DNA of 64,000 nucleotides, from the NCBI GenBank assembly GCA_013791785.1, contig VMTD01000047.1, positions 1,704 through 65,703 on the forward strand, in the 5' to 3' direction. The position numbers and the translations under genes were made by a program. The DNA comes from Methanobacteriota archaeon (lineage in GTDB: Archaea > Thermoplasmatota > Thermoplasmata > SG8-5). A model generated the notes under the pieces. It had not been told where the DNA came from. It ran no database searches and saw nothing but the letters and a program-made list of their open reading frames with translations. Positions 7,406-63,333 of this stretch are shown here, one piece after another (the first letter of the stretch is position 1; the number at the start of each line of letters is the position of its first letter).

Positions 7406-8458
7406 TCACACCCCCAATGTGGCGACAGGACATGTCCATGTCATCTCCGAAGCCGTAGAGAGAACGAGCCTGTAGCACTCACCGGGCATGAGATTGAAAT
7501 TCGTACCGGCTATCATGACTCTGGCCTCCCACATGCTGGTGTCCTGGTTCCAGCGATTCACAGAGGAAACGGCATTTATTGGTGTGCCAGTGCCTCTAAT
7601 GTTCGAAATTAAATAAGCAGCTGTGTTTGCAGTGAATGCATAATGGTATGGAAGTGAAATGTAATTGTTATCTGCTCCGGCCACTCCGGTGCCCTTAAAA
7701 AGGAGATGAATGTAATCCGGGTCGTACGCCCCCACCATCTTGTAAATAACCACTGGTAGGGTAACCACTGCTCGGTATCCCTCGCCGGGTTTGAGGACGA
7801 AATTCGTACCGGCAAAAGAAGTTCTGGCTTGCCACATGCTGTTGTTAGAATCCCATCTGTTCACAGACGATATGCCATTGATTGGAGTTCCATAGGTACG
7901 CATGTCGCCTATGAGGGCCGCCGCGTTATTCGTGTGTGTGCTATAGGTGATGTTCACCCGATATGGAAGCGAGATATAGTTCTGATCCATTCCAGCGGAA
8001 CCCATTCCCTGTCTCAGAGTGATGCACTTCTTCCAGGCGATGTTGGAAATGTCAAGGTTCTCGGTGGTTCCGAAGACGGACGTAACCACCCAGGCATAAT
8101 CGCTGGCTGTGGCATACGCGCCCACATCCGTCCAGATAATTTTTCCTGTGCCGGTGGCCGGAACCACATCATAAGGCGATGAGTAATTGAACCCGTCCCC
8201 GCGGACGCTGGTTGACCTGTAAATCCTGTACTCTGTCGCGCCGGATATCTCTGACCACTCCAGCTGAACGTCGGTTGCGGTGGGCGCGTGGGGGGTGGCC
8301 AGTAGGTCCATTATTTCGAAAACCGTCGGCTGAATCGGTGTGGGCGGAACCCTGGCGATGCCGCCGCGCGCTTTTCCCTCTGCCAGTCCCGCACCTGCAA
8401 GGATTATGGCCAAAATTATGAGAACGGCCGCAACCCCCAACAATCTCGAGTCTCTCAT
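7406..8458 (-). CDS. secreted FN3-like protein with an internal tandem duplication of a ~100-aa module (track start 8467 is TTG; ATG at 8458 preferred)
   Basis: signal/TM segment; DVQLEWSEISGATEYRIYRS (FN3-like); two copies of ...NYISLPY...SSVNRW(D/N)...SMW(Q/E)AR...AGTNF.L.PGE.YR.V; TATA-like aaattatatatag upstream. Confidence 0.65.
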   Translation of the reverse strand: MRDSRLLGVAAVLIILAIILAGAGLAEGKARGGIARVPPTPIQPTVFEIMDLLATPHAPTATDVQLEWSEISGATEYRIYRSTSVRGDGFNYSSPYDVVPATGTGKIIWTDVGAYATASDYAWVVTSVFGTTENLDISNIAWKKCITLRQGMGSAGMDQNYISLPYRVNITYSTHTNNAAALIGDMRTYGTPINGISSVNRWDSNNSMWQARTSFAGTNFVLKPGEGYRAVVTLPVVIYKMVGAYDPDYIHLLFKGTGVAGADNNYISLPYHYAFTANTAAYLISNIRGTGTPINAVSSVNRWNQDTSMWEARVMIAGTNFNLMPGECYRLVLSTASEMTWTCPVATLGV

Positions 8459-8691: not shown

Positions 8692-10626
8692 TTAAGTGAC
8701 AGTGAAAACGTGCGGGTCGGGGATGCCAATCAGCGGATTTGTCTCATCCCTGCCTGACGCATCAGAGGCATGAATGTAATACTGGATTGTGACTCCCGGC
8801 ACCTGGCCCGGTATGAAGGCGGTGTACTGGTTACCGGTAACTTGCGACATTGGAACGACATGATAGGTCGGCTCCGTGGAAAGCTTCCAGCACAACTCCT
8901 GGGCAGTGATATCAGAACCGCTGTATGCCGTAATCTTCGCCTTAATCTCTATCGGCTCGCTGTCTGGCTTCGGTCCCCTGACTGGGAAATGCTGGATATA
9001 CAGCATTCCCAAATCAGGAATGCCTCTTGTCCTGCAGTGCAATGCGTCAGTTGATTCCCATGTCCCGGTGAAGCCGATTATCTCATAGCCTGGCATGGCT
9101 GCCTGATACGATGCTATAGCTTCGTCATCCCAGGAGCCGCCCATGATGGGCAGCAGAACCTTGTCATTCAAAATCAGGCAATTCGAGTACGGCTCGTCGT
9201 TCGGCGTATAAACCCTGTAAACCTGATATGGGGTGCCGTAAGCAGATATCTGGCTCTCGAAGTAATCCACCGCAGCTTCAATTTCATCGTACTGGATATG
9301 TTCCACAGGAACTTCGCGAATCATTATCTTGTCCACATCCAGGTACTTGGCCCAGCAGTCTATGTGCTTGATATATTCCCCGTTCGCATCCGGAACGATA
9401 TGGTATGTGTCTATGTTCAGGTAATCCTTGTGCAGCTGTCTTACCTGTGTCTCCGTGAGACCGGCATTCTCCTCCAATACCAAGTCGGTCGAAACAGAGA
9501 TGCCCTGGCCGTCTGTCATGTAATTTCCGCCAGCATGATATACGTCCATGTAGTCCAAAGGCACACCGAGATAGCTGGCGACTGCGGCAGGAACCGCATT
9601 GTCAGCCGGTCTCGGTCTGTTATATGGGAAGTCCACAATCCCGAAATCGCCGTTTTCGTCTGTAATCCACCATGGACCGTAATCCCTGGTCCAGTAGGAG
9701 TCTGAATCCGCAATTATCCACTCGCAGTTGGCCAGGTTCACTCCGTTGTTCCCGTAAAAGTTTATGGCCTGGTTCATTACCGTGGTACTCCTGACTAGGG
9801 TGTAAACGATATCTTCTTCCGCAATTTCGGCGATGACGTCATAGGATATTCCAAGCGTGTACCTAATCAGCACGCCCTGCATTCTCTCGAACTCTGCTGT
9901 CTGACGTATGGGCTCCGGGTTCACGACGTCCCATGTGATATCGGAAGTGGAATGCACCCAGTAGCCGTGGCCTGTCTCCAAGGTAACGCCGGCCAGGTCG
10001 GCAGTGTCTATTATGTAGGGCGAGAGCGTCTGATAGTATGACATAATATCCACAGTCAGGGGAAGAGTTTCACTGGCGCTTACCTGTACCCGGGACGGGT
10101 AACCGACAAGGTTCCAGCCCGCATAAAGCAGTATCTGGGTCACGCCCGGCTCTTCCCCATTTACGCTCAGCATCTCGTCTGAGCCTGGATCAGTTATATA
10201 CACCCACAATCCCATGGTGTTGTCGATGTAATTTAGGTCATTAGTTGTTGCCCCGATGCGATAAGTCTTCCAGGGATTGGCCGGTGTCTGAGGATTGTAC
10301 CATTTCACGACACTCCAGGTCGTGTCACCCCCGGCGTCGTTCAACACCGATTCAGGCGAGCCAGCTGCTGTGACAGGGAATGAAATGAAATTCCAGCCGC
10401 TGATAATAGGTGTGTCGTAATGCGGGCTCGGCGCGGGGTGGCTGCGGGGGCCAGTTTCGGCCGGGGGACTGTCCGTTACATTATAGAACAAATGGGCCGC
10501 TGTCTCCGGCGTTCCGTGCGAGTCAATGCTTTGTGTATCCACCATTCCCATGAAAATGCTCGAGAACATCAAAGCTGCAATAATGAATCCAATCGCAAAA
10601 ATCCTTGTAATGCTATTGTCTCTCAT
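8692..10626 (-). CDS. secreted protein with agmatine deiminase / Porphyromonas-type peptidylarginine deiminase (guanidino-modifying) catalytic domain plus beta-rich domains
   Basis: signal peptide; WTRDYGPWW and DALHCRTRGIP (catalytic Cys) motifs typical of the agmatine deiminase/PPAD superfamily; the N-terminal region is paralogous to the C-terminus of 5437..7401; TATA ctttatatacg about 30 nt upstream. Confidence 0.6.
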   Translation of the reverse strand: MRDNSITRIFAIGFIIAALMFSSIFMGMVDTQSIDSHGTPETAAHLFYNVTDSPPAETGPRSHPAPSPHYDTPIISGWNFISFPVTAAGSPESVLNDAGGDTTWSVVKWYNPQTPANPWKTYRIGATTNDLNYIDNTMGLWVYITDPGSDEMLSVNGEEPGVTQILLYAGWNLVGYPSRVQVSASETLPLTVDIMSYYQTLSPYIIDTADLAGVTLETGHGYWVHSTSDITWDVVNPEPIRQTAEFERMQGVLIRYTLGISYDVIAEIAEEDIVYTLVRSTTVMNQAINFYGNNGVNLANCEWIIADSDSYWTRDYGPWWITDENGDFGIVDFPYNRPRPADNAVPAAVASYLGVPLDYMDVYHAGGNYMTDGQGISVSTDLVLEENAGLTETQVRQLHKDYLNIDTYHIVPDANGEYIKHIDCWAKYLDVDKIMIREVPVEHIQYDEIEAAVDYFESQISAYGTPYQVYRVYTPNDEPYSNCLILNDKVLLPIMGGSWDDEAIASYQAAMPGYEIIGFTGTWESTDALHCRTRGIPDLGMLYIQHFPVRGPKPDSEPIEIKAKITAYSGSDITAQELCWKLSTEPTYHVVPMSQVTGNQYTAFIPGQVPGVTIQYYIHASDASGRDETNPLIGIPDPHVFTVT

Positions 10627-10669: not shown

Positions 10670-10834
10670 TTACTGCATAAATGCTCGAGAAAGCCCAGCC
10701 TTGAGGGGCTGAGATGAATCGGCATAAGCAGTAAACTTCCAGCCCTAGCAACAAACGCCAGCCACTTTAGGGGCTGGTAGTTTACGGTATAAGCAGTAAA
10801 AACGTGATAGACCGCCGTGCACATATGCATGGCC
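10670..10834. repeat. interspersed mosaic repeat family A, copy A1 (modules: tactgca.aaatgc.gaga..gggctgagatgaatcgg / cttccagcc..gccagccactttaggggctggtagtttac / cgtgatagaccgccgtgc..atatgcatggcc)
   Basis: near-identical modules recur at 17871..18110, 21779..21950 (inverted), 30851..30957, 43901..44093, 49213..49264 and 58944..59070. Confidence 0.8.
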
Positions 10835-13666: not shown

Positions 13667-13737
13667 AACCTTGATGCACCAGTCCTGGCATGGGGTATGC
13701 TATTCATAAATAGTATAATCCCGCCAATCAATTGACG

Positions 13738-13852
13738 GTAAGAGTTCAGTATTTTGAAATTTTAGATTTTAGATCTTAGATTTTAGATATTTGCTGGCAG
13801 AATGTCGTCCGTCGTAAATCTACAATCGAAAATCTAAAATCTACAATCGTTA
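13738..13852. repeat. repeat family B, copy B1: inverted arms of tagattttagat(c)ttagattttagat and atctacaatcgaaaatctaaaatctacaatcg around a 28-nt spacer
   Basis: same arms plus the conserved leader taagagttcagt.tt.tgaaatttt recur at 32370..32630; a solo right arm sits at 28255..28315. Confidence 0.75.
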
Positions 13853-13913
13853 TTGGGTAATGTCCTCGATTGTACCGCATAACTAATATACTTGATGTTG
13901 CATATATGTTCTT

Positions 13914-14384
13914 ATGGCGAGACCACGAAGTGAAGTAAAAATTACGTGCCAGATTCCCACGTGCAAATATTATCTTAAAGAAGAAAAAAAGGACATCCTT
14001 AAAAGAGGCAAGAATAAAGCTGGCCATCAACAATATTATTGTAATCACTGCCACAAATGGTTCGTCGAAACAGCGAATACACCGTTATATCATAAACATC
14101 TGTCCGAGGAAGAAATCATCAATATATGCAAACATCTGGTTGAAAAGAATGGTTTACGTTCGATACAGCGTATAACAGGCCACCACCGAGATACGATTGG
14201 CCGTCTTGTAGTAGATCTTGCCGAGCACGCGGAAAGAGCAAATAATTTTCTGATACACAATGTAAAATTGACCCCCATAGAGTGCGATGAATTGTGGTCA
14301 TTTGTGAAAAAAAACAAAAGAAAGTTGAGCCCGGCAGCCCAGATAGCCATGAAGAAGGTGATGCTTGGGTCTACGCAAGCATAA
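13914..14384 (+). CDS. insA: IS1-type transposase N-terminal ORF (InsA-like; zinc finger + HTH)
   Basis: CQIPTCKYY...CNHCHKWF zinc-finger-like; HTH segment; ends just after ECDELWSFVKKNKRK, a hallmark IS1 motif. Confidence 0.7.
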   Translation: MARPRSEVKITCQIPTCKYYLKEEKKDILKRGKNKAGHQQYYCNHCHKWFVETANTPLYHKHLSEEEIINICKHLVEKNGLRSIQRITGHHRDTIGRLVVDLAEHAERANNFLIHNVKLTPIECDELWSFVKKNKRKLSPAAQIAMKKVMLGSTQA

Positions 14385-14905
14385 AACGAAACACATATTT
14401 TTGGCTCTCTTATTCTCTTGGTAAATGGACACAGGAAACGTGCCGTGAAATGATAGAACTCATGTATCACAGACTCGAATTGCCATTTCCGAGCAACAAA
14501 CTTGAAATCTATACCGACGGAAATGATGATTATACCTATGTTTTTCCAGAATATTATGCGAACACCTGTATCATTTACGGGCAGCTAATAAAAATCAAGA
14601 AAGGAGGTCGTCTGGTTAAAAAGATAAAACGACCGATATTTGGAGATCCACGACTGGAGGATATAGAAACAACCGAAATAGAGAATATGAATGGGATAAT
14701 GAGAGAGCGTCTTGGGCGGTTGGTTCGAAAAACTAAGTGTTTCAGCAAGGACATACAGATGCAATGGTGTGCCCTTCAGTTGTTTCAATTTCATTGGAAT
14801 TTCATGAATAGATTTCGGAGAGGAGCAACACCAGCGATGTTGGAAGGGCTGGCTGACGCGCCGTGGACATGGGAGAATTTTTTAACGACTCATTATGCGG
14901 TGTAA
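14294..14905 (+). CDS. insB: IS1-type transposase catalytic ORF (InsB-like), reached by a programmed -1 frameshift at gtgaaaaaaaac (~14303..14314)
   Basis: ORF is in the -1 frame relative to InsA and overlaps it by 91 nt; the A7 run precedes a DAWVYASIK... continuation typical of IS1 InsAB fusions. Confidence 0.65.
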   Translation: MVICEKKQKKVEPGSPDSHEEGDAWVYASIKRNTYFWLSYSLGKWTQETCREMIELMYHRLELPFPSNKLEIYTDGNDDYTYVFPEYYANTCIIYGQLIKIKKGGRLVKKIKRPIFGDPRLEDIETTEIENMNGIMRERLGRLVRKTKCFSKDIQMQWCALQLFQFHWNFMNRFRRGATPAMLEGLADAPWTWENFLTTHYAV

Positions 14906-14986
14906 ATTAGGACACTACCCGAAATTAATTTATACCTTGACAATCATATATTAATATATGGCATTCAGACAGGGGATTTTAGGAAA

Positions 14987-16392
14987 GTGGTAAGTATGCT
15001 TACATTGAAACAGACAATTTCACATGTGCTCATAGGGCAAAAGGGTGGGCCGAAAAGAATTCAGATCATTGAACTGATTAAGGTACGACCATACAATATC
15101 AACCAGCTTGCAGAGATTATGAAATTAAACTATAGAACAGTGAAACATCACATGGAAACCCTCTTGAGAAATGGTTTTGTTATCTCCTCAAAAAGCAGCG
15201 GTTACGGGGAGGTGTTTTTCTTGTCCCCTCTGCTTGAGGATAATTTCGAGCTATTCGAAGATATTATTAAAAAAGCAAACATTACCTCATCACATACCTT
15301 CTTCCAGAACGTGATAGAACAGACAGATACGGCTGTTATTCTCATAGATAAAGATGGAGAGACCTTCTTCTGGAATGCTGCCGCTGAAAAACTTTCGGTT
15401 ACAAAGTAACGGAAGTGATGGGAAAGAGCATCCAGATTTTTCATTATTCGGAACATCTGGAGAGCATAGTAAAAACAGCCATGCAGGGTAAGAAATCCAC
15501 GGCCTTCGATACAATCGCCAAACACAAGTCTGGAGAAATTTTTGATATAAATGCTAGAATTGACCCTATCAGGGATACGGAAGGTTCGATAATCGGATTC
15601 TCCATACTCGCCCAAGACATCACCGACCAGAAAAAAGCAGAAAGGGCATTACGAAGTTCGGAAGAAAGATTCCAGGAGCTTTTCAAGAACACGTTAATCG
15701 GTATCTACCAGACAACCTCCGAGGGCCAAATTCTCCTGGCAAACCCGGCGCTCGTCCGTATGTTAGGATTCTCATCCTTAGCAGAACTCTCCAAACGAAA
15801 CCTGGAGAAGGAGGGATTTGCCGAGAGTGTTTCACGTTCTGACTTCAAGAAACGCATAGAACGTAATGGACAGGTCGCTGGGTTCGAAACCTCTTGGACC
15901 AAGAAGGATGGTTCCATTCTTCACGTCCGTGAAAACGCCAAAGCGGTCCAGGATGGTAAAGGTAATATTGCGTTCTATTGTGGAACCGTTGAAGATCTCT
16001 CTCAGCAAAAGAAAATTCATGAAGATCTACACGAATCGAAGATAATGTTCGATACGCTCGTGAGCATCCTCCCCGAGGCCGTGATGATGACGGATATCGA
16101 AGGAAAAATCATATATTCGTCGCAACAGGCGCTTGAAATGTATGGACACTCAAGCGAGAAACAGATGCTGGGGAAAAATATTATTGACTTTGTTACACCC
16201 GAAGATTACAGAAAGGCTACGAAATTTATGAATCGAACTCTATCTGAGGGTATTGTAAATGAGATAAAATGCAAGTCGTTGAGGAAAGACGGCTCAAGCT
16301 TCCTGGCCGAACTGAGTGCCTCGGTAATTCGGAACAGCGAAGGGAACCCGAAAGCCATCATCGTGACGATAAAGGAATGCAGTACCCGATGA
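14987..16392 (+). pseudogene. winged-HTH + three PAS-domain sensor regulator, split into two ORFs (14987..15409, 15415..16392) by a frameshift in an A5 run (~15387..15391)
   Basis: reading ttcggttacaaagtaacggaagtgatgggaaag in the downstream frame gives ...AAEK(L/T)FGYKVTEVMGKSIQIF, a continuous PAS core; the two ORFs are adjacent and on the same strand. Confidence 0.6.
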
Positions 16393-16445
16393 TTAAAGAT
16401 ATTCTCACCGAATTCACGCTAATTGTATCTGAAACGTTTTCATGC

Positions 16446-17808: not shown

Positions 17809-19039
17809 CTAAGACCCCATCCAACACGGACAATAAAAAGGTTTCGACGTTTGTCTCGTTGAAAGTTGTTTTACTGCACAAATGCCGAGAACGCTCAGTC
17901 CTTCAGGGCTGAGATGAATCGGCATGAACAGTAAAAACGTAGGAAACCGCCATGCACCGTGCAATTATTGGCAAATGAAATCAAAGCGCATTAGCTTTGA
18001 TAATTCAGGTGCATGGCCCCATAGGTAAACTTCCAGCCCAGAATCTTGTGACAATGGTTCCATACGTAAACGGCAGCTCATTTATGGGCTGATAGTTTAC
18101 AGAAAAAAGGGCGCTAACGGGTAGTGCTAGTGCTTTCCATCGGTCATCGGTTAAGGAAGAACCGTCTGTGGGGCTGTGGCAAACACACAGTACAGACAAG
18201 GGTTTTTACCCGTGATGTGCGCCTGCCCTGCTTTGACCGCCAAGGAAATAGTCACCAACCTCCTGTTCATTTTCTAATGAGCCAGAACCCTTAACCGATG
18301 ATACTGGATAAGCCATACTCTCCTTTCATCTGGATAGCGGCTCTCAATACATAGCCACGTGTGCTGTCGGGATATTCATTGATAACACGCCTACAATTCA
18401 AGCAAATGAGTGCTCCCCTGCGCAGGTATATACACACCGAATAACATGAAATTTGATTGCTCACAGAGTCATTCAGGACGATTTGAGTATATCCATGGCA
18501 TAGAATATCGAGGGGAGCCCTTTGTTTAAACAATTTCTCGCCACTGGAATAGCTTGAAAACGCCCGTATCCGCAGATTTAAAGTCGCGGTATATGGGCGA
18601 GAACATGTTTAATCAATGCCATTCCGATTCCTGGTGCCCGACAATATACTCCTACAACCCCACAACAACGCTTTTATCCAATGACCGCATTAATGATTAT
18701 GGTCAACTACTACTCGGAGCGGGAATAATCGAGGAGATAGCCTACTCGTTCTTTCTGAGCGGTAGTTGACCAACGATCTCCTCGGTTCCTTAAGCTGGGG
18801 AAAATGGAGTTCAGTATCAAGACCCATATGTCGTGTTCGGTCAGATATCAATAAAACTTCAAGTATGAATGACATAAAAATCCGGATTCTACAGAATGAT
18901 ATTGACGTGGAAAGTAATAAAAAGTTACACCTAAATTAGGGAGACAGATTCAAATGAATAATATATTTGACATCAATGGAGAGGCCCCCATGTGTAAATT
19001 ACCAGACCCTAAATCAGATAACATTCGCCGGGGTGAAAT

Positions 19040-21727: not shown

Positions 21728-22133
21728 CACTCCAGCATCTCTTTTGCCTTCCTCTTGCCAATTAATTGTTTTCATTGTGTAAACTACCAGCCCCTAAAGT
21801 GGCTGGCGTTTAGAGCAACGATACTCGTTGCGACTTAGCCGAACTTTGAGTTCGGCGATAATAGCCAGGCTGGAAGTTTACCTAGGAAGTCATATGCTGG
21901 TATATGCAAGGTGCATGGCAGGTCATGCACATGTGCACAGCGGTCTACCTTTCACCTATATTCGTGTAAATGGCCTTTCATCCCGGTTTAAAAGCCAGGG
22001 GGTTCCCGGCCATTATCACTAAAGATTGCGGTATTAGGACGAGGGCATGTTCAATCAAACAAGTTTTCACTCCTGATAACCGGGTCATTATGTTCATAAT
22101 CCTCTGCAAATATATCAGAAACTAGGTGAATGA

Positions 22134-22429: not shown

Positions 22430-22550
22430 AGCGGGAAGCATGAATCTATTATGTGGGCAATTCCTATCACGATAAACTCTTCCCCACTTTGAGCGGGGCA
22501 AATCTCTCTCCAACCTGGGCGTTATGCCCGAAGCCCCGCCCACCTTTTTT
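22430..22550 (+). repeat. repeat family C, copy C1 (gggaagcatgaatct.ttatgtgggcaattcctatcac ... GC hairpin + T-run); doubles as a + strand intrinsic terminator
   Basis: second copy at 27896..28012; hairpin gagcgggg..ccccgccc followed by accttttttt. Confidence 0.6.
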
Positions 22551-23950: not shown

Positions 23951-25090
23951 GTGATGTATATGAAAAGAACGACAATAGGAAACAAAAGATATCTTCCGGT
24001 GTTTTTCACCATGGCATTAATGCTAGCAGGCATGAGCGGATTAGTGAACGCGGCAGATGTGGCAACAAGCACGGATACGGCTGGCGGTCTGCAGGTTCAA
24101 GCAGACAATGTCGCTCCTGCGATAACGGGTTTTGAGATTGTGAATGCGGGTTATACTACAATATTAGATGCCCAGGTTGACGTTAATACGGAAATTACCG
24201 TAAATGTGACCATAGAGGACAACAACGGCTGGGACGATGTGGACACCATTCAGGTCATGTGCTGGTATGATGGTGGAAGCGAAGGATATTTCTCTGGTCA
24301 GACAACGGGTCATAATTACAGGGTATTGCTCTATTATGACAACACGGCTGCCGGAGGAAACGGGCAAACTGTTCCGACAACAGGAAACATGGATGCAAAA
24401 TATTCAACAACTGTTGACCATTCCACGGTAACAGATGGCACACATGCAGTAACTGAGGTCACGGCAAATCAGAAATACAAACTGACATGGAAGTTTACTC
24501 CCAGCTACCAGTTCAAGCAGGCAGACATACCTGCGGTTGCTGATGGAGTGGCATTTGCCAATGCCAACTCATGGAATGTGATGGTCAACGCTACGGATGC
24601 AGCTGCGACCACGAGCCAGAAGGATAGCGGTTCCGATGCTTACGAGTTCGGAATATACAAGTACACATATATTTCCAGTGCAAGCAATACATGGAACGTC
24701 GGAACTGTGGCACCAAACGCCAACTCTGATGCTACAGCGGCCAGTGTTACCACCAGGTCGAACGACGACATGGACCTAACCGTTTGGATAAATGGCGACC
24801 TGACCTGCGCAAGCCCCAGCGACACGATACCCACAAGCGGCTCTTATGTGAAAATCCTGGCTGCTGCAAGCGCAGCGGATGACATAGCCGGTGACCTGAC
24901 TTACACTGCGAACCTGGAGGCAGGCGAGAAAACAATCCTCGCCAATACTGGATACGGTGATCACAGCGCCTATATGGCGAGCAACAGTGCGCTGACAACG
25001 AGCGTGAACTTCAACATCGCAGTGCCCTATGGTACCTTGCCAGGGACATACACTGCTGTATTGACGTTCCAGGTTACTCAGGTAGCATAA
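23951..25090 (+). CDS. secreted Thr/Ala/Asn-rich surface protein, candidate major structural subunit of a surface layer or fibre
   Basis: signal peptide ending LVNA; low-complexity beta-rich composition; TATA tttttatatc ~50 nt upstream; strong terminator downstream. Confidence 0.65.
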   Translation: MMYMKRTTIGNKRYLPVFFTMALMLAGMSGLVNAADVATSTDTAGGLQVQADNVAPAITGFEIVNAGYTTILDAQVDVNTEITVNVTIEDNNGWDDVDTIQVMCWYDGGSEGYFSGQTTGHNYRVLLYYDNTAAGGNGQTVPTTGNMDAKYSTTVDHSTVTDGTHAVTEVTANQKYKLTWKFTPSYQFKQADIPAVADGVAFANANSWNVMVNATDAAATTSQKDSGSDAYEFGIYKYTYISSASNTWNVGTVAPNANSDATAASVTTRSNDDMDLTVWINGDLTCASPSDTIPTSGSYVKILAAASAADDIAGDLTYTANLEAGEKTILANTGYGDHSAYMASNSALTTSVNFNIAVPYGTLPGTYTAVLTFQVTQVA

Positions 25091-25197: not shown

Positions 25198-26496
25198 ATG
25201 ATTTTTACAGGACAGGTAATAATCATGGCTAGAAAAAAATCAATATTGATATTGTGTACTATCATGCTAATCGCATTTTCTTTCCCATTATCCCAAATGA
25301 GTACAGCAACCGATGGAATCGAGAATGTGCAACTTCATATGCCAGTGGAATCTATTTTTTTCAATGACGCAAATCAAATGGTGATGATTACCGGTTTCTG
25401 GCACATATTGGAATTTGACGTTCCTTCTGCAATGGATGCATCTATGGAACTCACGAAAGGAATAGATAGGTATGAATGGACATACAATGAAGGAGCATGG
25501 AACGAGTTAGAACATAACTTGTTCATAGACCAGACGAAGTGTTCATTCAACGGGGAAAGGATATTGTTTTGGATAGCTGTTGACCAATCTGCCATACCTG
25601 GTATTTGGCATCTTGCCGTAAACGCAGGCGAACTGAAAAGTGAACAAGATATTGAATTACGGGAAAGAACAGGGGGTGTGGGATTTTCCACGGCGGATTT
25701 CCTCATCGCAGTACCTCCATATACCCAGATGCAAGTGGAGACTGCAGACACGGGGCAATATGCCAGAGTCCACAATGAGGATGTCGTACCGGTAAATGTG
25801 GATTTTTTCATTGATAATGATAATTGTATAATGATTCCGGGTGAACGTACGCTATCCCCGCTCTCAATGGGGGAGTACTCCCTTGTCTATTCCAGTAACC
25901 CTCTAACTTCCCAAAGACAGGAATTTGGGGGTGAGGTTCTGATTACATACAAATATGTTGGCCCGAGCATTGGGACCGCCCAGTTAATTCCCTCTTACAA
26001 CTATCCATTTGATATCATCATCTTTGTGGGAGACCCTGACCTCGAATTTGTGGAGGCCGATGAATACACTGTACAGTATGTAACCAGCGTCCGAATGGCT
26101 TCCAACGAGACCAGAACCTTCCCGTTGATATTAGACGGCCAGGGGGATATCGACCTTGACATAAATGGGATTGGCTGCACGGTTTCATCGATAGAATTGA
26201 ATGGTGTGGAGGTAGATATGCCGTACCATCTGGAACTGGCTGGTGACAGGTCCGAAACCTTCAACATAATGGTTGAACCAATAATAACCAGCGGCAATGC
26301 TTCTCTTGTGTACCAGATAAACGGTGACCAATACACCACCGTTATTGAGATTGACTCTACTGGCGAACTTCAGGAAAAAATAACAGAAAACTATAGTGGA
26401 TATCTGAACAAGGTTTTACCCCCGGCAGTAATTGGAGTTTTAATCGTTGGTATCCTCATGATGTTATACAAGAGGAGAAGGAGGGTGAAAAGCTGA
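25198..26496 (+). CDS. secreted surface protein with a C-terminal TM anchor + RRRR tail
   Basis: N-terminal signal peptide; C-terminal PPAVIGVLIVGILMMLYKRRRRVKS. Confidence 0.65.
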   Translation: MIFTGQVIIMARKKSILILCTIMLIAFSFPLSQMSTATDGIENVQLHMPVESIFFNDANQMVMITGFWHILEFDVPSAMDASMELTKGIDRYEWTYNEGAWNELEHNLFIDQTKCSFNGERILFWIAVDQSAIPGIWHLAVNAGELKSEQDIELRERTGGVGFSTADFLIAVPPYTQMQVETADTGQYARVHNEDVVPVNVDFFIDNDNCIMIPGERTLSPLSMGEYSLVYSSNPLTSQRQEFGGEVLITYKYVGPSIGTAQLIPSYNYPFDIIIFVGDPDLEFVEADEYTVQYVTSVRMASNETRTFPLILDGQGDIDLDINGIGCTVSSIELNGVEVDMPYHLELAGDRSETFNIMVEPIITSGNASLVYQINGDQYTTVIEIDSTGELQEKITENYSGYLNKVLPPAVIGVLIVGILMMLYKRRRRVKS

Positions 26497-26534: not shown

Positions 26535-27089
26535 TTGGCAGGTACAACCAGCGTCATGGGGGACGATGGCGGCGTGCAGGTGGAAAATGTATATCCCACA
26601 TTCTCAAATCTGTCGGTGAGTGAAATTAACGGCAATACCCTGGTCACAATCAACGTTTCAGACTATAATTCATTTTGGGACATAGATAGAATATTCATAA
26701 ATGTGACAGATGGAAACGAAGGGGTCTTAAGCATTGCCTACTTTGCGAATAACACCCGTGATTCGCCAAACGGGCAGCTCAGGAACGTTATTGGAAACAA
26801 TCTGGTTTCAGAACTTTCTGGAATTAAACACAGCAATGAAAGCGAGGAATCGGAGAGTTGTTACCTTTTATTAGAAATATGCTTCACTCCTGTTGATGGA
26901 ACCTTCCTAAACGTGGTGGTATGGGATGTGGGTGGACTCTCTGCAACGTACACTGGGCAGTATGTATATCCCCCACTCGCCGGAAAGGCCAACATGAACA
27001 TAATAATCGGGGCGGTTGTGTTCTCTCTCATCCTAACGGTTTCGATTCAGATATTATTAAAACGGAGACACAAAAATGAGAATGTCTGA
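26535..27089 (+). CDS. secreted surface protein with a C-terminal TM anchor (TTG start)
   Basis: signal-like N-terminus; C-terminal NMNIIIGAVVFSLILTVSIQILLKRRHKNENV. Confidence 0.55.
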   Translation: MAGTTSVMGDDGGVQVENVYPTFSNLSVSEINGNTLVTINVSDYNSFWDIDRIFINVTDGNEGVLSIAYFANNTRDSPNGQLRNVIGNNLVSELSGIKHSNESEESESCYLLLEICFTPVDGTFLNVVVWDVGGLSATYTGQYVYPPLAGKANMNIIIGAVVFSLILTVSIQILLKRRHKNENV

Positions 27090-27675
27090 GAATATTCTCA
27101 ATCGAAGTATTCTGAACACCGTGTTACAGTCGTTCTGGCTATTTCTCTCAATCCTCCTCCTGTTTATATTAATTCTCCTAATATATGTTCCCGGTCTTAG
27201 TGCCCCGGCTGTTCTATTGTCCATGTCCCCCGATCATAGCGGCACAAATCAACCAGGCAGTATTTTTTTTGCTCTCTGTTTAGTTGCAACTATCACAGCC
27301 CTGCACTTTTTGGAGAATGACAAAGCAATTAAGCTGTCTATCATACTATCATTCATGATAATGATCATACTCGGAAACAATCTATTCAACACCAGCGTTC
27401 CGGTCCCCCTTCATTTTTATGGGCTCTTTTTTGCTGTGGCCTTGATGATTATTTTTGATGCGTTTATTGTATCAGAAATCATTGCTACACCATCAGATAC
27501 CAAAAGGAAAATTCCCATGTCGTCCGATTTATCCGAGCGGATTAGCGATTACCTCACAGAATCAAATACGGACGATAATTTGATGAGATATCTTGACAGC
27601 CTTGAAGGAATCCTTATTGAAAGCGATTTAGAGTTTGAATTAGAACGGATTATTCAATCCTACAATTCTCCTTAG
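27076..27675 (+). CDS. integral membrane protein (199 aa), last gene of the surface-protein operon
   Basis: four or five hydrophobic helices; overlaps the upstream gene by 14 nt. Confidence 0.55.
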   Translation: MRMSENILNRSILNTVLQSFWLFLSILLLFILILLIYVPGLSAPAVLLSMSPDHSGTNQPGSIFFALCLVATITALHFLENDKAIKLSIILSFMIMIILGNNLFNTSVPVPLHFYGLFFAVALMIIFDAFIVSEIIATPSDTKRKIPMSSDLSERISDYLTESNTDDNLMRYLDSLEGILIESDLEFELERIIQSYNSP

Positions 27676-27895: not shown

Positions 27896-28012
27896 CGGGA
27901 AGCATGAATCTGTTATGTGGGCAATTCCTATCACTATTATCTCTTCCCCACTAGGGCGAGGTCATTCTCTTTCCATAAGGGCTTAAGCCCAGGTCCTCGC
28001 CCCATTTTTTCC
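27896..28012 (+). repeat. repeat family C, copy C2, with terminator hairpin gggcgagg...cctcgcccc + T6
   Basis: 92% of the core is identical to 22436..22480; lies 220 nt downstream of the 27076..27675 gene. Confidence 0.6.
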
Positions 28013-28254
28013 CGCAAAATCATGCTTCCAGTTGTTTTTTATGATTTTGCGGAAATTCCAAAGACCCTGTGAATCATTAATGAAGATAGAACGTCGATTC
28101 ATGGCGAACGCTCATTATTGCATAGATTTAGTTTCCGCATTCACCGATTGCTTGCAAAATGATGGGAATTTATGGTGCTGGATTTAGTTTGTAATTGTTT
28201 CCGCATCATTGGCGAATGCGCCGTTTTCAAACGTTGCCAGCTGCATTCACCGCA

Positions 28255-28315
28255 CGTCGTAAATCTAAAATCTACAATCCCAAAATCGAAAATCGTTATA
28301 CATCTACAATCGACG
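28255..28315. repeat. repeat family B, solo right arm (copy B3)
   Basis: cgtcgtaaatctaaaatctacaatc..aaaatcgaaaatcgttata matches the right arms of B1/B2. Confidence 0.55.
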
Positions 28316-28377
28316 AGAATTGCATTCAACAACCGTCGCTGATTCGCCCCCACACTGGCCAACCCGGTCCAACGGCT

Positions 28378-28790
28378 GGTTCCAGCCCAGGCCATCATGC
28401 CCCGTCTGAATTGGAACATTTTGATAGCTGGAGGGCGGGGTATTCGCCATCGAATTTTCCGAATTCGATGTCGTGTGACACGATTCTCGCCATCATCCTT
28501 TTAAAGCCCCGCCTGTGAGGGCGGGGTTAGCTTAAACCGGCACACAACCCGGCCCCGGGGCTACGGCACCGGCCAACTCCCAAAGCACCCTTTCTCAGGT
28601 TTAACGGTGATGGCGCGCGCCTCCAATCCCAAATCGTCAGCTAGCCTGGGTGCCGTTGTTACCCCGGCCTTACAGCCGGGGCTTTGAAAACAGGGTGCCA
28701 ACAAAATGCCTTTTTGCCAACAATATGCTGTCACCCATACAGCCAATAGATTGAAACCCCGCCCTCACAGGCGGGGCATGCTACTTACTT
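28378..28790. repeat. repeat family D, copy D1: GC-rich ~410-bp element with CCCCGCC-N5-GGCGGGG hairpins and an atcgaatt/aattcgat palindrome
   Basis: the 5' ~130 bp and 3' ~40 bp are shared with 44290..44885 (gggcggggtattcgccatcgaatt..ccgaattcgatgtcgtgtgac; aaaccc.gccctcacaggc.gggcatgct). Confidence 0.7.
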
Positions 28791-30580: not shown

Positions 30581-30961
30581 ATTTTTACCTCCCTTATTTT
30601 ATTCTGGAATTGATGATTTGACTAAACTTAGATTCCCCCATTGATGTTCAACTCTTTTAATCGTAAATGTCCTGACCATATTAACTAACTTTTTCAAAAT
30701 TGAGTACAGATGATGTACACATCTTTTACACATGTTCAAAATTCAAAATGCATTGTACGCATAGAAAACCATCATGCACCAGCTCTCGGATGCTGCTTTC
30801 CCGAGGATGTTGAAAAAACCTACGACAGGAGCTTCGAAAAGTTCGCTGTACATATGCCGAGAAAGCCCAGCCCTGGGGGGCTGAGATGAATCGGCATAAG
30901 CAGTAAACTTCCAGTCCTGGCAACAAACGCCAGCCACTTTAGGGGCTGGTAGTTTACGTAA

Positions 30962-32305: not shown

Positions 32306-32369
32306 TCATTGCCTCCTAGCGATTTGTCAAATAGAGAAGGCTCAATGCATATATATTTGACGCCCCACC

Positions 32370-32630
32370 GTAAGAGTTCAGTCTTCTGAAATTTTAGATT
32401 TTAGATCTTAGATTTTAGATTTGTGCTGGGAATATGCTGTTTTGTCAATCTTTTTTAGTGATAAGTGATAAATGAAAAACTGAGTATTTTTGTCCTTGAG
32501 AGCCGATTCATTCATCATTTACCTCCCAACGTCACTTTTCACTATTCACTTTACACTTTTCACTAATCACTTCGGCCAGTCAATCCGTCGTAAATCTACA
32601 ATCGTCAATCTACAATCTACAATCGTTATC
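32370..32630. repeat. repeat family B, copy B2, with an expanded AT-rich ~150-bp core carrying nested inverted repeats (agtgataagtgataaatgaaaa / ttttcactattcactt...)
   Basis: left arm/leader ccgtaagagttcagtcttctgaaattttagattttagatcttagattttagat and right arm cgtcgtaaatctacaatcgtcaatctacaatctacaatcg. Confidence 0.7.
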
Positions 32631-33468: not shown

Positions 33469-33881
33469 TACATCTAAAACTCAAGTGCCACCATTGTGGA
33501 GAAAGCCTGATGGACCCAGATTTCGAGATTGACGACCATCCCAGTGTGAGAATTATTGTTGCATCTAATGGAGAAAAAGGAATATTACGCTTGAGCTCAC
33601 TCTATGGAAGTCACAAAAAAGATTCTGAATTAGATGTCCAAGAGGGAGAAATTGTTCGAATATTTTGTCCACATTGCAATGTCGATATGAAGAGTAGCAG
33701 GTTTTGTTATGAGTGCAAGGCACCCATGATCACATTTGAATCTCTTCTGGGTGGATATATTCGAGTATGCTCACGATGGGGTTGCAAGAAACAACTTGCA
33801 GAGTTTGAGAATTTGGAAACAGAGCTTAGGGCATTTCATGCGAAATATTCTCTCTCTCCTCAAGGGAGGGGGGAAAAATGA
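33465..33881 (+). CDS. double zinc-ribbon (4x CxxC) small protein translationally coupled between the hoxE-like and hoxF-like genes
   Basis: CHHCGE...CPHCNV...CYECKAP...CSRWGC; ATGA overlaps at both ends. Confidence 0.6.
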   Translation: MIHLKLKCHHCGESLMDPDFEIDDHPSVRIIVASNGEKGILRLSSLYGSHKKDSELDVQEGEIVRIFCPHCNVDMKSSRFCYECKAPMITFESLLGGYIRVCSRWGCKKQLAEFENLETELRAFHAKYSLSPQGRGEK

Positions 33882-43817: not shown

Positions 43818-43900
43818 GATATCGTCAATGATTTACAATATATATGTTTTTATCTTATCTTGGATTCAATCTTCGAGTGCTATTTCTGACTGAATTATAA

Positions 43901-44093
43901 CGTGATAGACCGCCGTGCTTATATGCATGACCTGCCATGCATCGTGTTCATATGCATGACCTGCCATGCATCGTGTACATATACCTGCATATGAAATCAA
44001 AGCTTGTGAGTTTTGATAATTAGGTGCATGGCCCCTCAGGTAAACTTCCAGCCATGGCAACAAACGCCAGCCACTTTACGGGCTGGTAGTTTA
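43901..44093. repeat. repeat family A, copy A5, including a 2x ~29-bp tandem repeat (atatgcatgacctgccatgcatcgtgt)
   Basis: modules cgtgatagaccgccgtgc, gaaatcaaagc...gtgcatggcc and cttccagcc...gccagccactttacgggctggtagtttat. Confidence 0.7.
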
Positions 44094-44289
44094 TGCAATT
44101 CACTATAAAATTACAATGTTTTTGTGATGAGACACCCTAACCAAAGAAAAAGAAAAAAATAGAGGGAGTAATCGTGATAGTACACAATTCTCAGCGCAGT
44201 ATATACCACCTTTCCCGAAATTCTCGATTATGATAATGATGCCTGTCGAACCGGGCTTCACCGGGGTACCGGCCCTACCAACCCAGCGG

Positions 44290-49082: not shown

Positions 49083-49275
49083 GATTTTACCTCCCATATT
49101 CACAATTTTGCGCTATGATATGCATCAATGTATATGATGGAGGGTTGAAGTTAGACACAATATATAAATTTTTATATCTCATTATTCAGATATAAATTTA
49201 ACATTGATATATTACTGCACAAATGCCGAGAACGCTCAGTCCTTCAGGGCTGAGATGAATCGGGGAGCACTCATC

Positions 49276-57923: not shown

Positions 57924-58341
57924 AGAATTTTAACTCTATTTTTCTACGTAACGTCACCGGAATTATGAATAGTAGCCATTAGAATACACTGCAAGAATAA
58001 CATTCAATAATTGTCTTCCATCAGAATTCCCTGTTCAACATATCATTTAGCATTTTTAACATAAAATATGGGTATTAATATAAATTATTGGCTGTTTCAA
58101 GTTATAAATTTAAAATAAATGAATGAAAATCATGATAAGAAACACACACAATGTCATACACATTTTTAAATGGCCAGTGATATAAGTGGTACTATTTCAC
58201 ACAGTAAAATGGCATATTCATCATTTATTGTTGATAATAGTGTAATTCCATTCTAAATAGAAATATCACCTATACTATTCATGAAAGCAAATAAGATCGA
58301 AGATGGTGAAAGATACGATAAAATAAAAAGGAGGTAGAAAA

Positions 58342-58905: not shown

Positions 58906-58943
58906 ACAAAAGGAAGATCGCCATGCACTGTGCAGATATTTCC

Positions 58944-59070
58944 ACATGAAATCAAAGCTAAATGACTTTGATTTCATGTGCATGGCCTACAATTGTAAAC
59001 TTCCAGCCTTGAACCAATGGGTACAGGATCCAAGCGATAATGCTAGCCACTTTAGGGGCTGGAAGCTTAC
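58944..59070. repeat. repeat family A, copy A7 (partial)
   Basis: gaaatcaaagc..gctttgat..gtgcatggcc and cttccagcc...gccactttaggggctgg modules. Confidence 0.6.
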
Positions 59071-63282: not shown

Positions 63283-63333
63283 AAGAAACAGAATGGAAGG
63301 GGTAAAGTACCTCTTCCCCTTTTCATTTTATTC

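What the first reader, a model, noticed from the sequence alone, without database searches (positions are those of the whole stretch)
10670..10834. Mosaic interspersed repeat family A: seven intergenic copies assembled from four or more shuffled modules
The copies lie at 10670..10834, 17871..18110, 21779..21950 (inverted), 30851..30957, 43901..44093, 49213..49264 and 58944..59070. They share near-identical blocks. Copies contain different subsets and orders of these blocks, and one (A5) has a 2x 29-bp tandem duplication. All are intergenic, often at promoter-proximal or convergent positions. Several blocks are self-complementary (ccagcc..ggctgg; gaaatcaaagc..gctttgat). This looks like a MITE-like or REP-like family. 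Alternatively it could be a set of small structured RNA genes (gggctgagatgaatcgg...ctga is loosely C/D-box-like).
Basis: seen in the sequence. Interest (0 to 1): 0.55.

Follow-up and report, generated by a model that had tools for sequence, protein, structure and literature searches.

The report
Miniature IS200/IS605-type transposons in a methanogen
The seven repeats are copies and fragments of a small, gene-less mobile DNA element of an archaeon (Methanomassiliicoccales). It carries the end hairpins and target-site rule of the IS200/IS605 single-strand transposons, so it is a new family of a known kind and not a new type of system.

Summary
All seven intergenic copies exist, and the 16-nt right-end motif occurs 14 times against 0.23 expected by chance. 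The modules are not shuffled. They are three collinear hairpin domains: D1 at the left end, D2 in the centre and D3 at the right end. Copies differ by internal deletion, 29-nt duplication, hairpin insertion and truncation. I recovered 68 complete units from related Methanomassiliicoccales MAGs and metagenomes.

The ends have IS608 geometry. A flanking tetranucleotide lies 19 nt 5' of the left hairpin foot, and the right hairpin is followed by 8 nt ending in TTAC. The last base of the flanking tetranucleotide is Watson-Crick complementary to the base just 5' of the left hairpin foot in all four combinations, with two exceptions. Two empty-site comparisons show insertion exactly 3' of TTAC or TTAG, as that base predicts, with no target duplication.

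The best explanation is a non-autonomous IS200/IS605-type (PATE-like) element mobilised in trans by a Y1 transposase. No transposase gene was found in about 0.66 Mb sampled. The central domain covaries strongly although short copies spread without it, so it may be a TnpB guide-RNA (omega-RNA) scaffold; this is untested. The C/D-box idea is rejected.

The parts
10670..10673 (+). A1: flanking target/cleavage tetranucleotide TTAC (CL). It is not part of the element.
   Evidence: Empty-site comparisons show that this tetranucleotide belongs to the target.
10674..10785 (+). A1: complete short element (D1 + D3, no central domain). Guide GL = AAAG at 10690-10693. Left hairpin IPL at 10694-10713. Guide GR = AACG at 10754-10757. 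Right hairpin IPR at 10758-10777. Tail TAGTTTAC at 10778-10785.
   Evidence: It is 96% identical to A4 over 101 nt. Copies of the same short form occur at other loci (L042, L044, L052, L056, L058, L066).
10786..10834 (+). Remnant of a second, tandem copy. It keeps the 3' part of D1 (module b) and a collapsed P3 hairpin. It has no left-end hairpin and no right end.
   Evidence: (family D12).
17871..17874 (+). A2: flanking tetranucleotide TTAC (CL).
17875..18100 (+). A2: complete full-length element. D1 lies at about 17875-17935 (GL AACG at 17890-17893, IPL at 17894-17913). D2 lies at about 17938-18019 (long-range helix P3 enclosing hairpin P4). D3 lies at about 18023-18100 (long linker h, a diverged IPR, tail TAGTTTAC).
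18976..19009 (+). Degenerate relic of modules f-g (weak D3 hit).
   Evidence: (family D13).
21779..22018 (-). A3: complete element on the minus strand. It has a variant-2 left end (D1 at about 21960-18 i.e. 21960-22018), a d-type hairpin, no P4 hairpin, and a long linker with two extra hairpins. Its right end (GGGGCTGGTAGTTTAC, read on the minus strand) lies at 21779-21794.
22019..22022 (-). A3: flanking tetranucleotide TTAG (CL of a variant-2 left end).
30847..30957 (+). A4: short element (D1 + D3). Its 5' flank at 30843-30846 is TCGC instead of TTAC, so it is probably no longer excisable.
43899..44094 (+). A5: copy without a left end (D2 + D3). It has a 29-nt tandem duplication of the P3 5'-strand/d hairpin at 43914-43982, and its right end is mutated to GTTTAT.
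49212..49263 (+). A6: solo left-end fragment (TTAC flank at 49212-49215, then the first 48 nt of D1). It is 100% identical to A2 positions 17871-17922 and truncated after GATGAATCGG.
58911..59070 (+). A7: copy without a left end (D2 + D3). Its right end is the variant GGGGCTGGAAGCTTAC.

Best explanation
Family A is a non-autonomous, protein-less transposable element of the IS200/IS605 type, i.e. a palindrome-associated transposable element (PATE). It lives in Methanomassiliicoccales archaea.

Shown here: the element has no terminal inverted repeats. It has similar imperfect hairpins near both ends on the same (top) strand. A tetranucleotide that belongs to the target (TTAC, or TTAG/TTAT/TTAA in left-end variants) lies 19 nt 5' of the left hairpin foot. 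The last base of that tetranucleotide is complementary to the base just 5' of the foot (the guide GL). The right end is AACG, then the hairpin, then TAGT-TTAC. New copies sit exactly 3' of the tetranucleotide predicted by GL, without target duplication. They also sit head-to-tail behind the TTAC that ends another copy.

Inferred: a Y1 (HUH) TnpA transposase encoded elsewhere excises the top strand as a single-stranded circle and pastes it 3' of the target tetranucleotide in single-stranded DNA at replication forks.

The 'mosaic' copies are one collinear three-domain element (D1 left end, D2 centre, D3 right end) altered in several ways: microhomology deletion of D2 (the 115-nt short form, which has itself spread), 29-nt duplications, hairpin insertions in the linker, truncations, and tandem or nested insertions.

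More speculative: D2 + D3 (about 135-160 nt ending at the element boundary) is a TnpB omega-RNA scaffold inherited from a tnpB-carrying parent.
For: - Copy number and spread. There are 83 left-end and 81 right-end hits, and 68 complete units in discrete size classes of about 115, 208-214, 226-236 and 258-260 nt. They come from 5 GTDB species-representative MAGs of Methanomassiliicoccales/Thermoplasmata, from metagenomes, and from the window's own MAG.
- Geometry. Across about 70 left ends the flank-to-foot distance is 19 nt (18 in variant 2). The flank/guide combinations are TTAC/AACG 23, TTAC/AAAG 16, TTAC/AATG 5, TTAG/AACC at least 10, TTAT/AAAA 6 and TTAA/AACT 1. There are only 2 exceptions. 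This matches IS608: CL TTAC lies 19 nt 5' of the IPL foot and outside the IS, GL is AAAG, CR lies 10 nt 3' of the IPR foot, and changing GL retargets insertion (PMC3201880; PMC5934647).
- Empty sites. A variant-1 element lies exactly after TTAC (L050 against L060/L066). A variant-2 element lies exactly after TTAG inside a heptamer array (L042 against L054/L062). There is no duplication: the left flank is TTAG while the element ends in TTAC.
- Tandem junctions. Five junctions read ...GTAGTTTAC|TG....
- Ortholog polymorphism. L036 is filled where L008 is empty.
- Strand-specific fold. 94.9% of cells are paired against 28-40% in slid controls, 18 pairs show compensatory changes, and the covariation score is 0.281 against 0.05-0.07. 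G.U pairs far outnumber A.C pairs on the top strand. Fold z-scores are -6.6 (RNA) and -6.9 (DNA) for the top strand against -4.6 for the bottom strand.
- No coding capacity and no orientation bias relative to genes.
- Orientation clusters within contigs: 36 copies in the majority orientation against 6 in the minority, p about 0.017. This is as expected for replication-strand-biased insertion.
- Other assemblies of the same population break contigs inside A1, A2 and A4.
Against: - No Y1 transposase or TnpB gene was found in the window, in 10 kb upstream of it, or in about 0.57 Mb of related loci. These searches were only motif/regex scans plus Pfam on selected ORFs.
- No autonomous copy with these ends was recovered. 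All 39 metagenome hits to the left end are protein-less.
- The right-end tail is 8 nt, not 10 as in IS608.
- CR equals CL (TTAC) in the commonest variant. For that variant alone, a 4-bp target duplication cannot be excluded.
- Position -1 also covaries with an internal partner in helix P0, so part of the CL/GL signal could reflect that helix. However, P0 fails where GL holds (L017, L013, L037).
- Mobility is inferred from comparative data. It was not observed.
Confidence: 0.8

Rival explanations
1. A REP/REPIN-like family mobilised or maintained by a RAYT (REP-associated Y1 transposase), not by an IS200/IS605 TnpA.
For: RAYTs are also Y1 HUH enzymes that act on hairpins. Domain D3 contains a partial inverted copy of the right end (module g against the 3' half of module i), which is loosely REPIN-like. 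GTAG occurs next to the right hairpin. No IS-borne tnpA was found.
Against: - The ends are asymmetric: 19 nt 5' of the hairpin at the left, 8 nt 3' at the right. They show guide/cleavage complementarity exactly as in IS608.
- GTAG lies 3' of the hairpin, not 5' as in REPs.
- Units are 115-260 nt with distinct left and right ends, not 20-40-nt REPs or symmetric doublets.
- Insertion is target-tetranucleotide specific.
- No RAYT-like gene was seen.
Confidence: 0.07
2. A multi-copy family of independently transcribed structured small RNA genes (about 210-230 nt) that is not mobile as DNA. The repeats spread by duplication and are kept for an RNA function.
For: Covariation is strong in P0-P4, G.U pairs are tolerated on one strand, and P3 is in the minimum-energy fold with RNA but not DNA parameters. 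The family is conserved across at least 5 species.
Against: - Copies are inserted precisely after a guide-predicted tetranucleotide, including inside other repeats and behind each other.
- Truncated and deleted forms are common, and the short form lacking D2 has multiplied.
- Flanks vary, and the element carries no conserved promoter (BRE/TATA).
- There is no Rfam match.
- Orientation relative to genes is random.
Confidence: 0.05
3. A conventional cut-and-paste MITE that inserts into TTAC with a 4-bp target duplication, mobilised by a DDE transposase (an IS1-like fragment lies at 14294-14905).
For: In the commonest variant, TTAC is found on both sides. A DDE_Tnp_IS1 fragment is present in the window.
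Against: There are no terminal inverted repeats: the element starts TGCACAAATGCC... and ends ...GGCTGGTAGTTTAC. Variants with TTAG, TTAT or TTAA at the left still end in TTAC, so the two tetranucleotides are not a duplication. The folding signal is strand-specific.
Confidence: 0.02
4. Archaeal C/D-box (or other K-turn) small RNAs.
For: The host is an archaeon. The conserved internal loop GAGAAC / AGAUGAA contains GA dinucleotides on both strands.
Against: There is no RUGAUGA C box and no terminal CUGA D box with 12-nt guide spacers. The motif is embedded between two covarying helices of a 65-nt hairpin. Rfam gives no hit at E<=10.
Confidence: 0.01

Closest known systems
IS608 (Helicobacter pylori) and the IS200/IS605 family single-strand 'peel-and-paste' transposons
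   Same: - No terminal inverted repeats and no target duplication.
- Subterminal imperfect palindromes on the top strand at both ends.
- A target/cleavage tetranucleotide TTAC that is outside the element and 19 nt 5' of the left hairpin foot.
- A 4-nt guide 5' of each foot (AAAG in one variant, identical to the IS608 GL), whose last base pairs with the last base of the cleavage site.
- The right cleavage site lies a few nt 3' of the right hairpin and inside the element.
- Insertion occurs 3' of the tetranucleotide.
   Different: The family carries no tnpA or tnpB. The right-end tail is 8 nt, not 10, and CR is TTAC rather than TCAA. The left hairpin sits on two extra covarying helices (P0, P1), and P0 pairs with the target tetranucleotide itself. 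The host is an archaeon. No sequence similarity was detected.
PATEs (palindrome-associated transposable elements) of Haloquadratum walsbyi, and PATE-like elements of Geobacillus stearothermophilus
   Same: - Protein-less and too short to encode a transposase.
- Near-terminal palindromes and no terminal inverted repeats or target duplication.
- A 5' targeting oligonucleotide, with a longer distance from the element start to the palindrome at the 5' end than at the 3' end.
- Core deletions by short repeats giving 'terminal-only' versions that still spread.
- They are themselves targets of other small repeats.
Sources: PMC3119063 and PMC10055086.
   Different: This is a different lineage (Methanomassiliicoccales) with unrelated sequence. 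The parent IS was not identified here, whereas several haloarchaeal PATEs share ends with annotated IS605-type elements.
TnpB omega-RNA / reRNA (e.g. ISDra2)
   Same: D2 + D3 is a roughly 135-160-nt multi-stem structure on the top strand that ends exactly at the right boundary. The last 6 nt (GTTTAC) pair with an upstream segment (GTAAAC). This recalls the 116-nt, four-stem ISDra2 scaffold, whose nt -5 to -3 pair about 100 nt upstream (PMC10097598). PATEs are reported often to encode omega-RNAs used in trans.
   Different: No tnpB was found. There is no match to any Rfam model. No pseudoknot covariation was detected. There is no expression evidence. The short form lacks D2.
BIMEs / BOX elements (bacterial mosaic intergenic repeats)
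   Same: Intergenic, modular, hairpin-rich repeats whose copies carry different subsets of modules.
   Different: The modules here keep a fixed order and belong to one transposon-like unit with defined, asymmetric ends and a target rule. There is no REP (GTAG + hairpin) and no boxA/B/C organisation.

Membership tests
IS200/IS605-type non-autonomous element (PATE) | No terminal inverted repeats | tested here: met
   The 5' end TGCACAAATGCC and the reverse complement of the 3' end (GTAAACTACCAGCC) are unrelated in the alignment of 45 copies.
IS200/IS605-type non-autonomous element (PATE) | Subterminal imperfect palindromes at both ends, on the same strand and similar to each other | tested here: met
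   Left end: AACG-CTCAGTCC-TTCA-GGGCTGAG. Right end: AACG-CCAGCCAC-TTTA-GGGGCTGG. The left hairpin covaries in 4 of 8 pairs. G.U pairs far outnumber A.C pairs on the top strand.
IS200/IS605-type non-autonomous element (PATE) | Asymmetric ends: the left cleavage site is about 19 nt 5' of the hairpin foot and outside the element; the right cleavage site is a few nt 3' of the hairpin and inside it | tested here: met
   The distance is 19 nt (18 in variant 2) at the left and 8 nt at the right. IS608 values of 19 and 10 were read in PMC3201880.
IS200/IS605-type non-autonomous element (PATE) | The 4-nt guide 5' of the hairpin foot is complementary to the cleavage/target tetranucleotide, so the transposon directs its own target choice | tested here: met
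   Position -1 pairs with position +19 as C:G (about 45 copies), G:C (about 14, in at least 3 left-end lineages), T:A (6) and A:T (1). There are 2 exceptions. The right end has AACG with TTAC.
IS200/IS605-type non-autonomous element (PATE) | Insertion exactly 3' of the target tetranucleotide without target-site duplication | tested here: met
   Two empty-site comparisons (TTAC, TTAG) and five head-to-tail junctions behind a right-end TTAC. These used paralogous repeat copies, not true allelic sites.
IS200/IS605-type non-autonomous element (PATE) | Too short to encode a protein / non-coding | tested here: met
   Units are 115-330 nt, with stop codons in all six frames and no conserved ORF.
IS200/IS605-type non-autonomous element (PATE) | A cognate Y1 (HUH) TnpA in the same genome, ideally in an IS that shares these ends | tested here: inconclusive
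   None was found in the 64-kb window, 10 kb upstream of it, or 0.57 Mb of related loci, using Pfam on selected ORFs and motif scans.
IS200/IS605-type non-autonomous element (PATE) | Orientation bias linked to the direction of replication (top strand on the lagging-strand template) | tested here: inconclusive
   Orientations cluster within contigs (36 against 6, simulation p about 0.017). Replication origins are unknown.
TnpB omega-RNA (reRNA) | A structured RNA ending at the right boundary, with a guide taken from the 3' flank and a cognate TnpB gene | tested here: inconclusive
   A covarying multi-stem domain does end at the boundary. However, no TnpB motif was found, there is no Rfam hit, no pseudoknot covariation was seen, and there are no transcript data.
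REP / BIME / REPIN (RAYT-associated) | A 20-40-nt palindromic unit with a conserved GTAG 5' of the hairpin, often as inverted doublets, plus a RAYT gene | tested here: not met
   The 4 nt 5' of both hairpins are AACG/AAAG, and GTAG lies 3' of the right hairpin. Units have distinct left and right ends. No RAYT-like motif was found.
Classical MITE (DDE transposase-mobilised) | Terminal inverted repeats and a target-site duplication | tested here: not met
   There are no terminal inverted repeats. The left tetranucleotide (TTAG/TTAT/TTAA) differs from the right-end TTAC.
Archaeal C/D-box sRNA | A C box (RUGAUGA) near the 5' end, a D box (CUGA) near the 3' end, internal C'/D' boxes, 12-nt guides, and a length of about 50-70 nt | tested here: not met
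   The sequence is AGAUGAA inside a 65-nt hairpin and the box arrangement is absent. Rfam gave nothing at the gathering thresholds or at E<=10.

The most novel reading that the evidence does not exclude
The full-length copies may not be just inert transposon husks. Their D2 + D3 part could be a working omega-RNA scaffold. Each copy would then be a guide-RNA gene whose guide is its own 3' flank, used in trans by a TnpB (or a nuclease-dead TldR-like relative) encoded elsewhere in these methanogen-related archaea.

This would explain why D2 keeps its fold through stepwise compensatory changes although the D2-less short form transposes. It would also explain why the guide-adjacent GTTTAC is paired with an upstream GTAAAC. 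Because right ends often lie 36-99 nt upstream of same-strand gene starts, some guides would address promoters.

A second unusual point is that helix P0 pairs an internal GTAA-containing strand with the target tetranucleotide itself. This could be a natural form of the extended left-end/target pairing that has so far only been engineered in IS608.
Probability: 0.3. Interest if true: 0.55.

Novelty: new member of a known kind. Interest (0 to 1): 0.35.

Why it matters
- Annotation. The result explains a conspicuous set of intergenic repeats that fragment Methanomassiliicoccales assemblies. It gives a precise model (left end, right end, target rule) for annotating them.
- Natural retargeting. The family shows, in natural populations, the guide-directed retargeting rule that was worked out experimentally for IS608. 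Four left-end variants use TTAC, TTAG, TTAT and TTAA.
- Genome evolution. The family is a marker of single-strand transposition activity in an archaeal order where I found no published description of such elements.
- Possible guide RNAs. If the central domain is an omega-RNA, the copies would be a ready catalogue of archaeal TnpB guide scaffolds and of their natural targets.

Otherwise this is an ordinary, if neat, transposon-derived repeat family.

Tried and rejected
- Rfam at gathering thresholds on the whole window, and at E<=10 on two copies: nothing relevant. No tRNA or tmRNA in the window.
- Sigma-54 promoter and K-turn readings of the left-end loop were considered by eye and dropped. 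The spacing or the consensus does not fit.
- Search for an autonomous parent. All 39 metagenome and 30 genome hits are protein-less. Scans of the viral collection with left-end and right-end patterns gave 0 hits. Plasmid and phage collections gave no match.
- Regex scans of six-frame translations for TnpB (zinc finger and D.NAA.NI motif) and for Y1 TnpA motifs: nothing. These scans are crude, so a negative result is weak.
- Pfam on 30 window ORFs found only an IS1-like DDE fragment.
- Translating the element to look for a tnpB C-terminal remnant: stop codons in all frames.
- Pseudoknot or extra long-range covariation: none beyond P0-P5.
- Strain-level insertion polymorphism at A1, A2 and A4: the other assemblies are the same population (99.95-100% identity) and carry the elements or break inside them. 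Three look-ups found no record.
- Ortholog comparisons L065/L047, L016/L066 and L034/L026: the intergenic DNA is too diverged for clean empty sites.
- I ran no further search on TnpA/TnpB, because the results carry no taxonomy or genome link.

Full report
**Observation**

A blastn-short comparison of each copy against the window links them by segments of 30-101 nt at 85-100% identity. The right-end 16-mer GGGGCTGGTAGTTTAC (up to 3 mismatches) occurs 14 times against 0.23 expected from shuffles. HMMs for the three domains find only these seven loci plus one relic at 18976-19009. All copies lie between long ORFs. The 29-nt duplication in A5 is real. The window contains no tRNA gene and no Rfam family at the gathering thresholds.

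**Host and distribution**

Flanking genes include a methanogen output domain, NuoF-type and hydrogenase-type fusions, and PAS sensor kinases.

An exact-match scan of one genome per GTDB species with the right-end hairpin returned 30 loci. All are in five Methanomassiliicoccales/Thermoplasmata MAGs. A metagenome scan with a left-end 20-mer returned 39 more loci.

The window itself is identical to contigs of NCBI MAGs GCA_018899285.1, GCA_018900055.1 and GCA_018899975.1. Other assemblies of the same population break their contigs inside A1, A2 and A4, as expected for a dispersed repeat.

Nothing similar is present in the viral, phage or plasmid collections.

**Anatomy**

Aligning full-length copies shows one collinear unit of about 208-236 nt, not shuffled modules. 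It has three domains:
- **D1** (about 65 nt) is a long irregular hairpin. It consists of helix P0 (TTACTGC/GCAGTAA), helix P1 (ATGCCGA/TCGGCAT), a conserved internal loop (GAGAAC / AGATGAA), and the terminal hairpin P2.
- **D2** is a long-range helix P3 that encloses hairpin P4.
- **D3** consists of GTAAACTTCCAGCC (module g), a variable linker h, and the hairpin CCAGCCAC-TTTA-GGGGCTGG followed by TAGTTTAC.

Across 0.64 Mb I found 83 left ends, 81 right ends and 68 complete units. These fall in discrete size classes of about 115, 208-214, 226-236, 258-260 and 278 nt or more. The classes arise as follows:
- The 115-nt class (A1 and A4 in the window) is D1 + D3. It is joined at a shared GTAAA and occurs at several unrelated loci, so it has multiplied in that form.
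- The 258-260-nt class carries one or two extra 29-nt units (module d).
- The longer linkers carry small extra hairpins, some of which themselves covary.

In the window:
- A2 and A3 are complete.
- A1 is a complete short element plus a remnant of a tandem partner.
- A4 is a short element with a mutated 5' flank.
- A5 and A7 lack D1.
- A6 is a 52-nt solo left end that is 100% identical to the left end of A2.

**Structure**

RNAalifold on 45 distinct copies predicts exactly these helices. Counting the pairs gives:
- 94.9% of cells paired, against 28-40% when partners are slid by 1-3 columns;
- 18 of 53 pairs with compensatory changes;
- a covariation score of 0.281, against 0.05-0.07 in the slid controls and 0.151 in shuffles (0 of 500 shuffles reach the observed value).

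P3 exists in at least three compensated states: GCCATGCAC/GTGCATGGC, GCCGCATAC/GTATGCGGC and GTTGCATAC/GTATGCAAC. P1 and P2 also switch as whole helices between left-end variants.

G.U cells outnumber A.C cells roughly 110 to 13 on the strand shown, so the top strand is the one that folds. Fold z-scores are -6.6 (RNA) and -6.9 (DNA) for the top strand and -4.6 for the bottom strand. This points to a single-stranded nucleic acid, either DNA or RNA, and not to a duplex protein-binding site.

**What it is**

The ends match the IS200/IS605 paradigm point by point. For IS608:
- The transposase recognises subterminal imperfect palindromes on the top strand.
- The left cleavage site TTAC lies 19 nt 5' of the left hairpin foot and is not part of the IS.
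- The right cleavage site lies 10 nt 3' of the right hairpin foot.
- Both sites are read by 4-nt guides just 5' of each foot (GL AAAG, GR GAAT).
- Changing GL retargets insertion.

Here, about 70 left ends have a tetranucleotide 19 nt (18 in one variant) 5' of the foot. Its last base is Watson-Crick complementary to the base adjacent to the foot in all four combinations:

| Flank / guide | Copies |
|---|---|
| TTAC / AACG | 23 |
| TTAC / AAAG | 16 |
| TTAC / AATG | 5 |
| TTAG / AACC | at least 10, in at least three different left-end backgrounds |
| TTAT / AAAA | 6 |
| TTAA / AACT | 1 |
| Exceptions | 2 |

The right end reads AACG-hairpin-TAGT-TTAC. This is the same guide/cleavage pair.

There are no terminal inverted repeats and no ORFs.

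**Evidence for mobility and for the target rule**

- One variant-1 element interrupts a copy of another repeat family exactly after TTAC. The filled site reads ...CATTTTAC|TGCAT...GTAGTTTAC|AAACAAGCGGTGAATGCG. The uninterrupted paralogue reads ...CATTTTAC|AACCAATTGGTGAATGCG.
- One variant-2 element (GL AACC) interrupts a heptamer array exactly after TTAG. The filled site reads GAAATTTTAG|TGATAAAGG...GTAGTTTAC|ATTTTAGATTTTAG. The uninterrupted copies read GAAATTTTAG|ATTTTAGA....
- The tetranucleotide is therefore target DNA. The target follows the guide, and nothing is duplicated.
- Five head-to-tail junctions read ...GTAGTTTAC|TG..., i.e. an insertion behind the TTAC that ends another copy.
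- An orthologous intergenic site is filled in L036 and empty in L008.
- Orientation is unrelated to the neighbouring genes (18 same/same, 11 opposite/opposite, 11 and 10 mixed). It clusters within contigs (36 against 6, p about 0.017). This is what replication-strand-biased insertion would give, but origins are unknown.

These features are also the published definition of PATEs: no inverted terminal repeats, near-terminal palindromes, no target duplication, too short to code, a 5' targeting oligonucleotide, and repeat-mediated core deletions that still spread (PMC3119063).

**What is missing**

I found no Y1 transposase, no TnpB and no autonomous copy in the window, in 10 kb upstream of it, or in 0.57 Mb of related loci. 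My motif scans are crude and whole genomes could not be scanned. The acting enzyme is therefore inferred. The rival that a RAYT-like Y1 enzyme mobilises the family cannot be fully excluded, although the REP signature is absent.

**The central domain**

D2 is dispensable for spread, because the short form has multiplied. Yet D2 is the most strongly covarying part, and P3 appears in the minimum-energy fold only with RNA parameters.

D2 + D3 is about 135-160 nt and ends at the right boundary. Its last 6 nt pair with an upstream GTAAAC. ISDra2 omega-RNA is a 116-nt four-stem scaffold whose nt -5 to -3 pair about 100 nt upstream. PATEs are reported often to encode omega-RNAs that act with TnpB in trans.

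This makes an omega-RNA origin plausible, and perhaps an omega-RNA function. I rate it about 0.3, for three reasons: there is no tnpB, no Rfam match and no pseudoknot covariation.

One feature remains unexplained. Helix P0 pairs an internal GCAGTAA with the target TTAC plus the first three element bases, and it covaries with the target base (C:G 26, G:C 10, U:A 5). This would compete with CL-GL pairing.

**Verdict**

It is not REP-like, not C/D-box, and not shuffled. It is a new family of a known kind in an order where I found no published description. Interest is moderate to low. There are two modest points of note: the natural four-way guide/target retargeting series, and a possibly functional omega-RNA-like core.

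Noticed in passing
window 13735-13853, 32367-32629, 28239-28313; also L047 about 9000-9320, L054 8860-9100, L062 2578-2740: A second dispersed element ('family B') has inverted arms made of heptamer arrays, (ATTTTAG)n on the left and (AATCTAC/AATCTAA)n on the right, around a core of variable length (119 nt and 263 nt in the window). It occupies the same kind of promoter-proximal intergenic sites as family A. Its TTAG-rich arm is a target for variant-2 family-A insertion.
   Followed up: partly
window 28012-28561 and 28357-28788 vs 44298-44884; L050, L060, L066, L042, L062: Further repeat families are present. One is a roughly 400-nt repeated block with GC-rich hairpins (GCCCCGCCTGTGAGGGCGGGG), shared between 28.4-28.8 kb and 44.3-44.9 kb. 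Another is a 'CTAAATCCAGGGCCATA...GGTGAATGCGA.AACTAAATCC' family, into which a family-A copy is inserted in L050.
   Followed up: no
L056 about 7995-8110; L066 181-230: A roughly 110-nt element with 15-nt terminal inverted repeats (TGAACAAGTCCTCGC ... GCGAGGACATGTTCA) is inserted inside D2 of one family-A copy (after TTAT). It also lies directly behind the TTAC end of another copy. This recalls the SMR-A repeats that target PATEs in Haloquadratum.
   Followed up: no
window 22432-22488 and 27896-27952: A 57-nt direct repeat (93% identical) brackets about 5.4 kb of lower-GC DNA (42-46%). Its ORFs (23951-25090, 25198-26496, 26535-27089, 27076-27675) have no Pfam hit. This could be an integrated element with att-like repeats.
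   Followed up: no
window 14294-14905 (+); L004 866-2345: An IS1-like DDE transposase fragment (PF03400, weak) sits next to a heptamer-array element. The adjacent ArsR/PAS genes (14919-16394) are 90% identical at the DNA level to a contig of a different species-level MAG (L004), far above the rest of the window. This suggests recent horizontal transfer.
   Followed up: no
window 33878-37099 vs 52789-55944; 56637-57924 vs 61996-63283: There are two paralogous operons, 71-76% identical at the DNA level. They encode roughly 1050-1070-aa NuoF-like/GltD-like fusion oxidoreductases and neighbouring subunits.
   Followed up: no
L070 8731-9909 (just upstream of window position 1): A 392-aa large serine recombinase (Resolvase + Recombinase domains) and a weak DDE_Tnp_IS240 hit lie within 10 kb upstream of the window. 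They are not linked to family-A ends.
   Followed up: no
alignment A5, columns 1-7 with 59-65 (window A2: 17871-17877 with 17929-17935): Helix P0 pairs the target tetranucleotide, which is not part of the element, with an internal GTAA-containing strand, and it covaries with the target base. Both cleavage tetranucleotides (left TTAC and right TTAC) are thus sequestered in helices of the minimum-energy fold. The meaning is unexplained; possibilities include regulation of cleavage or extended target pairing.
   Followed up: partly
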